In this document: piece after piece, positions 30,436 to 31,486 of the stretch | How the letters are laid out: every line of letters starts with the position of its first letter | Position numbering within the stretch: position 1 is the stretch's first letter | Assembly: GCA_000004695.1 (NCBI GenBank) | Contig: CM000151.3 | Coordinates: 3,680,001 to 3,744,000, forward strand | From: Dictyostelium discoideum | Taxonomy: Eukaryota | Length of the DNA: 64,000 bases | Reading direction: 5' to 3' | Program-made: the position numbers and the translations under genes | The notes under the pieces: model-generated | The model's input: the letters and a program-made list of their open reading frames with translations, nothing else | What the model was told of the DNA's origin: nothing | Database searches by the model: none

Positions 30436-30862
30436 ATTAATAATTAAAAAAAAAAAAAAAAAAAAATAAAAACTAAAAATATAATACGCATAAACTTTTT
30501 TTTTTTTTTTTTTTTTTTCATTTTCTATTTTTAGTTTTTTAAATTTTTTTATTCTTTTTTTTATTTTTTTAATTAATTAAAAAAATGAAAGACAACGATC
30601 TTCATCCTTATTGGGATAAGGCATGCAAATAGCTCGAAAAAAATTAAAGAGCCCAGTAATTACACAACATTATGTTTGCAGAAAAATTTTTTTTTTTTTT
30701 TATTTTTTTATTTATTTTATTTTTAGTTTTTAAGACTTTTCTTATGACATTTTTTGGTGATTGGCGAACAAAAAAAAAACCATCCTCATTATTATTATTA
30801 TTTTTTTTTTTGTTTTTTGTTTATTAAATTTTGGTTTTTTATTAAAAATATATATATATATA

Positions 30863-30941
<79 letters not shown>

Positions 30942-30946
<5 letters not shown>

Positions 30947-31215
30947 GACAACACCAATTAGATAAAGTAAACCAAGAGTAGAATTAAGATTTAAATGTTC
31001 ACAGAATATTATCAAGATGTTAGAATTAAAAATGAATATCAAGGTGTAGTTGATTAATTTCTTTATTAATTTTATAAAATGGTAATTGAAAAACATTTCC
31101 AAATGGTTTTAATTTTAATGAATTAGCTCAATGCTTTAAGAAAATGAATGTTACATATTTAAAAAAATACTACATGTAATTTCAAATTCACAATCAAAAT
31201 AAATATACACAATTA
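30942..31215 (+). pseudogene. Chimeric pseudogene: duplicated copine promoter + exon-1 start (ATGACAACACCAATTAG..., now with in-frame stop) fused to a decayed internal fragment of the cofilin gene at 40546
   Basis: 30585-31000 aligns to 34955-35340, the upstream region and exon 1 of the copine gene at 35266. 31003-31215 aligns to codons ~20-90 of the cofilin paralog (40603-40820) with many substitutions and frame-breaking stops. Confidence 0.6.
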
Positions 31216-31486
31216 TTACAAGATCCACCATTATTTTATACTCAAGATATTTATAACCAAATTTTAGAAATATTTGTTAAATACCGATAGAATCGATGTA
31301 TTTATACCACTTTTAAATTTAATCATGGAAACAAATACACCAATAAATACAAATACAAATACATTGAAAGAAATTACAAAAACAATGGGGTTATAAAACA
31401 AATAGTTCAATTTATTAAAAATTTAGAAGAAAAATTAAGTTATGATCCTAAATCTGATAGTAATATAAATAATATAAATAATAATA

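What the first reader, a model, noticed from the sequence alone, without database searches (positions are those of the whole stretch)
30585..31250. Segmental duplication of the copine promoter + exon-1 region fused to a decayed cofilin fragment: a chimeric pseudogene 4 kb upstream of the intact copine
30585-31000 aligns with 34955-35340 (about 75-80% identity). This includes the motif GGGATAAGGCATGCAAATAGCTCG...CCCAGTAATTACACAACATTATGTTTGCAG and the start ATGACAACACCAATTAG. It is immediately followed by about 210 bp homologous to the inside of the cofilin gene at 40546 (TATCAAGATGTTAGAATTAAAAA...AATTCACAATCAAAA), now full of stops. This documents a local duplication or ectopic recombination that juxtaposed pieces of two genes lying 5-10 kb apart. 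The conserved roughly 100-bp upstream block shared by both copies may be a functional promoter module.
Basis: seen in the sequence. Interest (0 to 1): 0.5.

Follow-up and report, generated by a model that had tools for sequence, protein, structure and literature searches.

The report
Dead copine–cofilin chimeric pseudogene scar
This is a real but non-functional patchwork of a copine B promoter and start joined out of frame to a piece of cofilin-2, left behind by rearrangements that occurred only in the Dictyostelium discoideum lineage; it is ordinary genome debris, though its history can be reconstructed unusually well.

Summary
30570-31003 is a diverged copy of the copine B (cpnB) upstream region plus the first 59 nt of its coding sequence (live copy 34932-35324). 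It is joined to 31005-31200, a copy of cofilin-2 nt ~59-253 (40604-40798). All alignment scores are far above those of random windows.

- The mosaic has a third piece, "X" (31201-~32047), a decayed ORF-like sequence. Part of it recurs inverted at 37197-37467.
- The chimera is the left edge of a ~4.4 kb insertion between the LUD-domain gene and cpnB. The insertion also carries an intact gene, DDB_G0272877, relocated from a chromosome 1 cluster.
- D. citrinum, D. dimigraforme and D. firmibasis have LUD directly next to cpnB.
- The earliest-branching discoideum-clade genome (ACTFIZ) lacks the insertion. It carries a cofilin-2'-X module with cofilin-2's own start and upstream region, so the cofilin-X junction is older than the cpnB-cofilin junction.
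- The fusion was out of frame at birth (34 codons). It has a shared stop at codon 7 and decays like neutral DNA.
- The ~100-bp upstream block is an ancestral footprint upstream of cpnB. It is conserved in the live copy and eroding in the dead one.

Verdict: a chimeric, dead-on-arrival pseudogene of a known kind; low to moderate interest.

The parts
30570..30944 (+). Dead copy of the cpnB upstream region. It contains the high-complexity 'block A' core (30585-30680, 34% GC within 6-9% GC flanks) and a (TAAA)n expansion (30856-30944). It lies next to the LUD-domain gene's 3' end (stop at 30435), as in the ancestral gene order.
   Evidence: Aligns to 34932-35265. The left edge matches the LUD-proximal sequence of the single copy in D. 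citrinum and L012. L002 and L003 carry different lineage-specific deletions in it.
30945..31003 (+). Dead copy of the first 59 nt of cpnB exon 1 (ATG at 30945). The TTA>TAA stop at codon 7 (30963-30965) is shared by AX4, L002 and L003.
   Evidence: The dead consensus and live consensus differ at 1 of 51 sites, and that site is the stop.
31004..31004 (+). cpnB | cofilin-2 prime junction. It lies in an imperfect microhomology patch (cpnB AATGTTCACA versus cofilin-2 AATGTCAACA, 8 of 10) with 1-2 filler nucleotides (G/GA). The same junction, TGTTCACAGAATATTATCAAGATGTT, is present in AX4, L002 and L003.
31005..31200 (+). Decayed fragment of cofilin-2, corresponding to 40604-40798 (about codons 20-85). 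It enters out of frame relative to the cpnB ATG (offset 65 versus 63).
   Evidence: It shares the discoideum-clade-specific CAAT insertion (…AATTCACAATCAAAA) and groups with cofilin-2, not cofilin-3.
31201..32047 (+). 'X': a decayed ORF-like sequence of unknown parent, including an (AAT)n run at 31480-31590. It is joined to the cofilin fragment at CAATCAAAAT|AAATATA. This junction is also present in both module copies of L012.
   Evidence: Its only protein hit is the gene model at the same locus in L003 (P0151).
32100..34660 (-). Segment derived from a chromosome 1 gene cluster. It carries the intact gene DDB_G0272877 (32319-33995, minus strand) with ~0.2 kb of 3' flank and ~0.65 kb of 5' flank.
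   Evidence: The donor site in D. discoideum (L011) retains only a 346-bp remnant.
34661..34931 (.). About 270 bp of unassigned sequence between the chromosome 1-derived segment and the live cpnB upstream copy.
   Evidence: No source was found. It is present and colinear in L002 and L003.
34932..35324 (+). Live counterpart of the duplicated segment: the cpnB upstream region (block A core 34955-35050) plus the start of exon 1 (ATG at 35266). The left boundary at ~34932-34958 is the novel junction.
37197..37467 (-). X-prime: an inverted partial copy of X lying between the cpnB 3' end and the Cys-rich gene. It keeps ancestral indel states and is probably the remnant of the original cofilin-2 prime + X module at its original position.
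40604..40798 (+). Donor region inside the intact cofilin-2 gene (40546-40977; COF2_DICDI, DDB_G0272568/DDB_G0274059).

Best explanation
The feature is a dead-on-arrival chimeric pseudogene. It is a non-functional scar of at least two DNA-level rearrangements confined to the D. discoideum clade.

Ancestral state (shown): PCO/ADO(-), LUD(+), cpnB(+), geneY(-), cofilin-3(+), cofilin-2(+), FNIP(-), with LUD and cpnB 0.44-0.66 kb apart.

Stage 1 (on the stem of the whole discoideum clade; shown by shared junctions): a partial duplicate of cofilin-2 (about 270 bp of upstream sequence plus nt 1-253) became joined to a sequence X. This formed a module that sat between cpnB and geneY.

Stage 2 (on the stem of AX4 + ACTFIR + ACTFIY, after ACTFIZ branched off; timing shown, mechanism inferred): a ~0.39 kb duplication of the cpnB 5' end (334 bp upstream plus 59 nt of coding sequence) arose, flanking ~3.9 kb of captured DNA. 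The captured DNA comprises a copy of the module from cofilin nt ~59 through X, then a ~2.6 kb segment from chromosome 1 carrying DDB_G0272877. The LUD-proximal cpnB 5' copy was joined to the cofilin fragment at an 8-of-10 microhomology with 1-2 filler bases. That signature suggests end joining or template switching, or equally a microhomology-mediated deletion inside a larger tandem duplication.

The downstream copy kept the complete gene and remains the functional cpnB, now driven by only ~334 bp of its old upstream region. The upstream copy encoded at most a 34-codon out-of-frame peptide, soon acquired a stop at codon 7, and has since drifted neutrally.
For: Homology and significance. Not an assembly artefact.

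Ancestral adjacency of LUD and cpnB: D. dimigraforme, D. firmibasis, D. citrinum.

The mosaic is colinear in L002 and L003 with an identical B|C junction and a shared codon-7 stop.

L012 (ACTFIZ) has LUD directly next to cpnB. It also has two module copies with the same C|X junction but with cofilin-2's own start and upstream region.

Lineage tree: (((AX4,L003),L002),L012),D. citrinum, with 100% bootstrap on 2,837 columns.

The single cpnB upstream region of L012 carries ancestral states, so it is not a dead/live recombinant.

X-prime keeps the ancestral TAGAACAT shared with L012. All dead-locus X copies have lost it. X-prime is nevertheless 88-92% identical to those copies and 84% identical to the L012 copies. 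A remnant of the module's cofilin-2 upstream element lies downstream of cpnB in L002.

The donor is cofilin-2, not cofilin-3, and the fragment shares the discoideum-specific CAAT insertion.

The fusion is out of frame: offset 65 versus 63, giving a 34-codon ORF.

Neutral decay: the dead pieces are 69-93% identical between lineages with many indels, whereas coding exons are 94-98% identical with none.

Stem divergence is similar for pieces A, B and C: 3/72, 1/47 and 6/186.

DDB_G0272877 is relocated, and only a remnant remains at the chromosome 1 donor site.

No terminal inverted repeats, no tRNA genes and no Rfam match.
Against: - The mechanism of stage 2 is inferred. No genome with an intermediate between the L012 state and the AX4 state was available.
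- The parent of X is unknown, and ~270 bp (34661-34931) has no identified source.
- X-prime is inverted relative to the module in L012 and L002, which requires an extra inversion.
- Loss of function is inferred from sequence only. Transcription from the dead promoter could not be tested. In AX4 itself the dead block A is still largely intact.
- With long, decayed branches, the neighbour-joining placement of the dead cofilin pieces relative to outgroup cofilin-2 is unstable (compare). The dating therefore rests mainly on the shared indel and on synteny.
Confidence: 0.8

Rival explanations
1. A single complex replication-based event (FoSTeS/MMBIR-type serial template switching) created the whole mosaic at once: cpnB 5' end, cofilin fragment, X, chromosome 1 segment, then re-entry 0.39 kb upstream of the break.
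For: The pieces are tightly packed and come from nearby templates (5 kb and 2-6 kb away) plus one distant template. There is microhomology with 1-2 filler bases at the B|C junction. The target is duplicated on both sides of the insert. A, B and C have similar stem divergence. No intermediates are seen among AX4, L002 and L003.
Against: The C|X junction exists in L012 without the cpnB part and with cofilin-2's own 5' end. At least that junction therefore predates the rest. A single event can only account for stage 2.
Confidence: 0.1
2. The dead copy is still functional as a regulatory or RNA element. Its retained cpnB promoter would drive a non-coding transcript or a short peptide running through the cofilin/X debris, convergent with DDB_G0272877. 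Alternatively, block A would serve the LUD gene's 3' end.
For: In AX4 the dead block A and ATG context are still largely intact. Block A is an evolutionarily retained element upstream of cpnB in several species. Gene callers placed models over X in three assemblies.
Against: The dead block A has lost different halves in L002 and L003. Its between-lineage identity (69-85%, with large gaps) is lower than that of ordinary intergenic DNA nearby. There is a shared early stop and the fusion is out of frame. Rfam gave no match. X is riddled with lineage-specific indels.
Confidence: 0.07
3. Gene fragments were captured by a mobile element (Pack-MULE- or Helitron-like DNA transposon), or arose by retroposition of a chimeric transcript.
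For: Mosaics of fragments from several genes are typical of such elements. Copies of X and of the cofilin-2 prime module occur more than once.
Against: There are no terminal inverted repeats apart from poly-A/poly-T runs. There is no poly(A) tail after the fragments. The copy includes 375 bp of upstream sequence, and the chromosome 1 segment carries both flanks of its gene. The flanking duplication is ~390 bp long, not a short target-site duplication. No tRNA gene lies nearby, as would be expected for TRE elements.
Confidence: 0.03
4. The similarity is a chance resemblance between AT-rich sequences, or an assembly artefact.
For: The window is extremely AT-rich, and low-complexity runs give hundreds of spurious BLAST hits.
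Against: Scores are 2.7-5 times the maximum seen in random windows. The high-complexity strings are shared. The structure is present in four independent assemblies.
Confidence: 0.005

Closest known systems
Non-processed (duplicated) chimeric pseudogenes and gene-fragment mosaics produced by partial segmental or tandem duplication, as described for Drosophila and for primate segmental duplications (from general knowledge, not checked here)
   Same: It is a DNA-level copy that includes promoter and upstream sequence. It fuses 5' and internal fragments of two neighbouring genes. Both parents remain intact nearby. The ORF is disrupted and the sequence decays neutrally.
   Different: Here the fusion was out of frame from the start, so it was never a candidate new gene. 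It was assembled in at least two stages. It also sits beside an intact gene relocated from another chromosome.
Tandem duplications with templated or captured insertions at the junction (FoSTeS/MMBIR or polymerase-theta-type end-joining products; general knowledge)
   Same: A ~0.39 kb direct duplication of the target flanks the inserted pieces. The pieces are copied from templates 2-6 kb away and from another chromosome. There is microhomology with 1-2 filler nucleotides at the one junction whose two parents are both known.
   Different: The single-event nature was tested and not met for the whole mosaic, because the C|X junction is older. Only one junction could be examined for microhomology.
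Large laboratory-stock duplications in D. discoideum, for example the 750-kb Ax3/Ax4 chromosome 2 inverted duplication (PMC2643946)
   Same: Same organism, and the window lies inside that duplicated region, since the neighbouring genes carry two accessions each. It shows that the genome readily duplicates segments.
   Different: Those duplications are recent, very large, nearly identical copies that arose in laboratory strains. This one is small (0.4-4 kb pieces), ancient (13-23% diverged), and shared by wild-derived lineages of the discoideum clade.
Gene relocation by duplication followed by loss of the original copy (divergent resolution of duplicates; general knowledge)
   Same: DDB_G0272877 is intact at the new site on chromosome 2. 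Its ancestral site on chromosome 1 retains only a 346-bp remnant.
   Different: This concerns the neighbouring gene within the same insertion, not the chimera itself.

Membership tests
Duplicated (non-processed) chimeric pseudogene | Significant homology to parts of two different parent genes, both of which are still intact elsewhere | tested here: met
   cpnB 5' end: scores 190 and 127 against random maxima of 71 and 65. Cofilin-2: score 223 against 44. The parents are intact and match Pfam Copine/C2 and Cofilin_ADF.
Duplicated (non-processed) chimeric pseudogene | Disrupted reading frame with no possible full-length product | tested here: met
   Stop at codon 7, shared by three lineages. The fusion is out of frame (offset 65 versus 63), giving at most 34 codons even after reverting the stop.
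Duplicated (non-processed) chimeric pseudogene | DNA-level origin: the copy includes non-coding upstream sequence | tested here: met
   375 bp of cpnB upstream sequence was copied. The L012 module includes ~270 bp of cofilin-2 upstream sequence.
Duplicated (non-processed) chimeric pseudogene | Relaxed selective constraint compared with the parents | tested here: met
   Between-lineage identity is 69-93% with many indels for the dead pieces. It is 94-98% with no indels for coding exons. The dead copies sit on long branches.
Processed (retro)pseudogene or chimeric retrocopy | Starts at or after the transcription start, ends in a poly(A) tract, and is flanked by short target-site duplications | tested here: not met
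   It contains 375 bp of upstream sequence including the AT-rich spacer. There is no poly(A) after 31200, and no short target-site duplications are present. Intron loss is uninformative because the copied parts contain no intron.
Transposon-mediated gene-fragment capture (Pack-MULE or Helitron type) | Terminal inverted repeats or defined element termini, with short target-site duplications | tested here: not met
   The only inverted repeats found in 30400-35400 are poly-A/poly-T runs.
Transposon-mediated gene-fragment capture (Pack-MULE or Helitron type) | Multiple dispersed genomic copies | not testable with these tools
   No whole-genome Dictyostelium DNA search was available. Within the window only X and X-prime recur.
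Single-event FoSTeS/MMBIR complex rearrangement | All junctions are created in one event, so all have the same phylogenetic distribution | tested here: not met
   The C|X junction is present in L012. The B|C junction and the chromosome 1 segment are absent there.
Single-event FoSTeS/MMBIR complex rearrangement | Microhomology and/or short templated filler at the junctions | tested here: inconclusive
   At the B|C junction, cpnB AATGTTCACA matches cofilin-2 AATGTCAACA at 8 of 10 positions, with 1-2 extra bases. The other junctions cannot be assessed because the parent sequences are unknown.
Functional cis-regulatory (promoter) module upstream of cpnB | Sequence conservation above background in orthologous upstream regions | tested here: met
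   This applies to the live or single copy only. The score is 104 against D. citrinum and D. firmibasis, with random maxima of 62-65. The block is retained in L012. AX4 and L003 live copies are 95-97% identical. It is not detectable in D. dimigraforme or D. purpureum, and L002's live copy has a 24-nt deletion.
Functional cis-regulatory (promoter) module upstream of cpnB | Conservation of the block in the dead copy, which would indicate retained function there | tested here: not met
   L002 lost the CCCAGTAATTACACAACATTATGTTT half. L003 lost GGGATAAGGCATGCAAATAG. Identity is 69-85% with large gaps.
Functional cis-regulatory (promoter) module upstream of cpnB | Demonstrated promoter activity or transcription start site | not testable with these tools
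   No expression or TSS data were available. The cpnB papers read give no promoter mapping.
Structured non-coding RNA gene (block A as an RNA) | Match to a curated RNA family | tested here: not met
   No Rfam hits at E<=1 across 30400-35400 on either strand.

The most novel reading that the evidence does not exclude
The cpnB-cofilin interval is a recurrent rearrangement hotspot in the D. discoideum species complex. It repeatedly acquires insertions flanked by several-hundred-bp duplications of the target: the cpnB 5' end in the AX4 group and the cpnB 3' end in ACTFIZ. It captures fragments and whole genes from nearby and from other chromosomes. This would point to a specific, still-active repair or replication mechanism (template switching or theta-type end joining) in Dictyostelium. 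The event would also have, by accident, delimited a minimal ~334-bp cpnB promoter and relocated DDB_G0272877 between chromosomes in a way that differs between cryptic lineages.
Probability: 0.3. Interest if true: 0.5.

Novelty: new member of a known kind. Interest (0 to 1): 0.3.

Why it matters
Practical value:
- It flags 30570-32050 as pseudogene debris. Gene callers have annotated 'hypothetical proteins' over it in several new assemblies.
- It shows that cpnB in D. discoideum is driven by at most ~334 bp of its ancestral upstream region. This is a natural promoter-truncation experiment, with a ~100-bp conserved block as the obvious candidate element.

Evolutionary value:
- It gives a well-resolved, stepwise example of how partial duplications, fragment capture and gene relocation remodel a compact, AT-rich protist genome.
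- The states are polarised by four outgroup or early-branching genomes.

It does not reveal a new kind of genetic element or a new function.

Tried and rejected
1. X as the decayed orthologue of the 225-241-aa gene next to the DDB_G0272877 orthologue in D. citrinum and D. dimigraforme. A SEG-filtered tblastx gave no hits, so this was rejected.

2. Finding a parent for X by protein search. The only hit was the gene model at the same locus in L003. A permissive DNA search against the outgroup loci gave only the 60-64% AT-rich background.

3. The one-step template-switch model for the whole mosaic was my working model until L012 was fetched. It was rejected for the whole mosaic because the C|X junction is older.

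4. ACTFIZ's LUD-cpnB adjacency as a secondary reversion by recombination between the dead and live repeats. This was rejected because its upstream region carries ancestral states rather than a dead/live hybrid pattern. In addition, its module has cofilin 5' sequence that the AX4-type copy lacks.

5. X-prime as a recent AX4-specific copy of X. This was rejected because X-prime keeps ancestral indel states that all three dead-locus X copies have lost.

6. Block A as a known RNA gene. Rfam gave no match.

7. Transposon or tRNA-targeted retroelement involvement. There are no terminal inverted repeats and no tRNA genes.

8. Two unfiltered BLAST/tblastx runs were swamped by low-complexity hits and were useful only for their top lines.

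9. My first frame calculation used a start position off by one. It was corrected.

10. Stem-length estimates over the full A+B alignment are unreliable in the AT-rich spacer. Only the high-complexity columns were used.

11. Literature searches found no earlier description of this pseudogene or of the relocation.
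Full report
**1. Observation**

The quoted strings are present at the stated coordinates. I used a +2/-3 local alignment and compared each score with ~270 random same-length windows from this window.

| Dead-copy segment | Partner | Score | Random maximum | Identity |
|---|---|---|---|---|
| 30570-30779 | 34932-35152 | 190 | 71 | – |
| 30910-31003 | 35233-35324 | 127 | 65 | 89% |
| 30994-31200 | 40595-40798 | 223 | 44 | 87% (ungapped columns) |

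An independent assembly of a D. discoideum strain (GCA_054883475.1, L001) has no substitutions across 30476-32320 and differs only by a 2-nt length change in a poly-T run. This is therefore not an assembly artefact.

The dead ORF is ATG ACA ACA CCA ATT AGA TAA, with the ATG at 30945 and the stop at 30963-30965.

31351-31592 matches 37467-37197 on the minus strand. Without the (AAT)n run it scores 135, against a random maximum of 53.

**2. Gene identities**

The window is D. discoideum AX4 chromosome 2.

- 32319-33995 (-) is DDB_G0272877.
- The copine is copine B, cpnB.
- 40546-40977 is cofilin-2 (COF2_DICDI, DDB_G0272568/DDB_G0274059).
- 39728-40144 is cofilin-3.
- The gene ending at 30435 encodes a LUD-domain protein.

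These genes carry two AX4 accessions each. This fits a location inside the documented 750-kb Ax3/Ax4 chromosome 2 duplication (PMC2643946).

**3. Comparative genomics: the ancestral state**

In D. dimigraforme (L007), D. firmibasis (L008) and D. citrinum (L010) the order is PCO/ADO(-), LUD(+), cpnB(+), geneY(-), cofilin-3, cofilin-2, FNIP(-). LUD and cpnB are only 660, 442 and 535 bp apart.

In AX4, and colinearly in two diverged discoideum-clade genomes, ~4.4 kb lies between LUD and cpnB. Those two genomes are L002 (ACTFIY) and L003 (ACTFIR), which are 80-92% identical to AX4 here. The chimera is the left edge of this insertion.

The dead copy adjoins LUD exactly as the single copy does in D. 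citrinum. The live copy's left boundary (~34932-34958) is the novel junction.

**4. Content of the insertion**

| Window coordinates | Content |
|---|---|
| 30570-31003 | Duplicate of the cpnB upstream region plus 59 nt of coding sequence |
| 31004 | 1-2 filler bases |
| 31005-31200 | Cofilin-2 nt ~59-253 |
| 31201-~32047 | "X" |
| ~32100-34660 | Chromosome 1-derived segment carrying DDB_G0272877 |
| 34661-34931 | About 270 bp with no identified source |

X is an ORF-like sequence. It is decayed by different indels and stops in AX4, L002 and L003. It has no detectable intact parent.

The chromosome 1-derived segment is homologous to the locus that carries the DDB_G0272877 orthologue in D. citrinum, D. 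dimigraforme and D. firmibasis. That locus is a cluster: TPR, 539(-), 202, 556, 257(-), 258(-), 561, lipocalin. The corresponding site on D. discoideum chromosome 1 (L011) retains only a 346-bp remnant. DDB_G0272877 was therefore copied to chromosome 2 with its flanks, and the original copy then decayed.

**5. Order of events**

A fourth discoideum-clade genome, L012 (ACTFIZ), is the earliest branch. The tree is (((AX4,L003),L002),L012),D. citrinum, built by neighbour joining on 2,837 ungapped columns of LUD, cpnB and cofilin-3, with 100% bootstrap.

In L012, LUD is followed directly by a full cpnB. Downstream of cpnB are two tandem copies of a module. Each copy consists of ~270 bp of cofilin-2 upstream sequence, decayed cofilin-2 nt 1-253, and X. 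Both have the same cofilin|X junction as AX4, CAATCAAAAT|AAA.ATA.

All dead cofilin pieces share the discoideum-clade-specific CAAT insertion and group with cofilin-2, not cofilin-3. The cofilin-X junction therefore arose first, on the stem of the whole clade. The cpnB-cofilin junction and the chromosome 1 segment arose later, on the stem of AX4 + L003 + L002.

Four checks support this order:

- L012's single cpnB upstream region carries ancestral states at the sites that distinguish dead from live copies. It is not a dead/live recombinant.
- X-prime (37197-37467) keeps the ancestral TAGAACAT found in L012 but lost in all dead-locus X copies. It is still closer to those copies (88-92%) than to L012's (84%). 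It therefore split from X at stage 2.
- X-prime lies where the module lies in L012, between cpnB and the Cys-rich gene.
- L002 keeps a remnant of the module's cofilin-2 upstream element at that same position.

**6. Was it ever functional, and is it now?**

The cofilin part enters at offset 65 from the cpnB ATG, against offset 63 in cofilin-2. Even with the codon-7 stop reverted, the ORF is [34 protein letters not shown]. It was dead on arrival.

The TTA>TAA stop at codon 7 is shared by AX4, L002 and L003. It is the only difference between the dead consensus and the live consensus in the exon-1 piece.

Identity between lineages:

| Segment | Identity | Indels |
|---|---|---|
| Dead block A | 69-85% | Large gaps |
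| Dead exon 1 | 85-91% | Present |
| Dead cofilin piece | 84-93% | Present |
| X | 86-92% | Present |
| Coding exons | 94-98% | None |

Pieces A, B and C show similar small stem divergences of 3/72, 1/47 and 6/186. This is compatible with one age for the dead copy as now constituted.

**7. The 'promoter module'**

Block A (live copy 34955-35050) is a 27-34% GC island within 6-9% GC flanks. It is significantly conserved upstream of the single cpnB in D. citrinum and D. firmibasis, scoring 104 against random maxima of 62-65. It is not detectable in D. dimigraforme or D. purpureum.

The block is retained in L012. It is 95-97% identical between the AX4 and L003 live copies.

In the dead copy, L002 has lost one half and L003 the other. 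The block is therefore a plausible cis-element of cpnB, and the duplication shows that ~334 bp upstream suffices to keep cpnB intact. Its presence in both AX4 copies reflects common descent, not retained function. Rfam finds no RNA family in it. Promoter activity could not be tested.

**8. Mechanism**

Shown:
- The origin is at the DNA level, because upstream and flanking sequences were copied.
- There were at least two stages.
- A ~0.39-kb direct duplication of the target flanks the insert.
- At the cpnB|cofilin junction there is an 8-of-10 microhomology (AATGTTCACA versus AATGTCAACA) plus 1-2 filler bases.
- There are no terminal inverted repeats, no poly(A) tail and no tRNA genes.

Inferred: stage 2 was one of two things.
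- One complex capture event, that is, a tandem duplication of the cpnB 5' end with templated or captured DNA at the junction.
- A larger tandem duplication of cpnB plus the module, followed by a microhomology-mediated deletion and insertion of the chromosome 1 segment.

The available genomes do not discriminate between these.

**9. Comparison with known kinds, and verdict**

This is a non-processed chimeric pseudogene, a fragment mosaic of the kind produced by partial segmental duplications. It fails the tests for a retrocopy, for transposon capture, for a single-event FoSTeS/MMBIR product (for the whole mosaic) and for an RNA gene.

Literature searches found no earlier description. I could not check dictyBase annotation.

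It is a new member of a known kind. Interest is modest, resting on three points:
- a well-resolved rearrangement history;
- a natural delimitation of the cpnB promoter;
- a caution for annotators, since gene models have been called over the debris in several assemblies.

Noticed in passing
window 32319-33995 (-), with flanks ~32100-34660; L011 6677-7022: DDB_G0272877 is a relocated gene. Its orthologues in D. citrinum, D. dimigraforme and D. firmibasis lie in a cluster (TPR, 539, 202, 556, 257, 258, 561, lipocalin). D. discoideum chromosome 1 retains only a 346-bp remnant at that position.
   Followed up: yes
window 37197-37467 (-): An inverted partial copy of X (X-prime) lies between the cpnB 3' end and the Cys-rich gene. 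It is absent at this position in L002 and L003. It keeps ancestral indel states, so it is probably the remnant of the original cofilin-2 prime + X module. Its inversion is unexplained.
   Followed up: yes
window 37728-38126 (+); L012 12847-13146, 16525-17149, 17250-17787, 20185-20814: A small Cys-rich tandem-repeat ORF with a signal-peptide-like start (VCSFGYEACGNRCYSPSSGQRCYPG repeated four times) has no Pfam match. It is absent from the syntenic interval of all outgroups and of L003, and is present in about four copies in L012. It appears to be a lineage-specific, copy-number-variable gene.
   Followed up: partly
window 40279-40400: A ~120-bp high-complexity element (…TTATCTCCCACAC…CATAACCGTTAGATTATTAT…) lies upstream of cofilin-2. 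It is conserved upstream of cofilin-2 in every species examined and was copied along with the cofilin-2 prime module. It is a candidate cofilin-2 promoter element.
   Followed up: partly
L012 11600-12209, 13671-14253, 17978-18331: ACTFIZ has three copies of the cpnB 3' end flanking ~6 kb of inserted material (module copies and Cys-rich genes). This is the same 'insertion flanked by duplicated target' pattern seen at the cpnB 5' end in AX4, and it suggests a recurrent mechanism or hotspot.
   Followed up: partly
window 30856-30944 and 31480-31590 / 37170-37300: A (TAAA)n microsatellite has expanded only in the dead cpnB upstream copies (about 22 units in AX4, also long in L002, short in L003). 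Long (AAT)n runs occur within X and X-prime.
   Followed up: no
whole window (cpnB, cofilin-2 and cofilin-3 accessions): Each of these proteins has two AX4 accessions/DDB_G identifiers. The window therefore lies in the 750-kb Ax3/Ax4 chromosome 2 inverted duplication, and the whole mosaic is present twice in AX4.
   Followed up: partly
L001 1140-1577; L002 11911-12875; L003 12020-12836 (all corresponding to window ~31200-32056): Automatic annotation called 115-, 139- and 180-aa 'hypothetical proteins' over the decayed X sequence in three assemblies. These are probably spurious pseudogene calls.
   Followed up: partly
L007 9342-10000: D. dimigraforme lacks a recognisable block A upstream of cpnB, although D. 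citrinum, D. firmibasis and the discoideum clade keep it. Its intergenic region instead has GGAT(C/A)G-type motifs embedded in long T runs.
   Followed up: no
window 41083-44499 (-): Two adjacent FNIP-repeat genes (490 and 520 aa) flank the cofilin pair. They are conserved in synteny across species.
   Followed up: no
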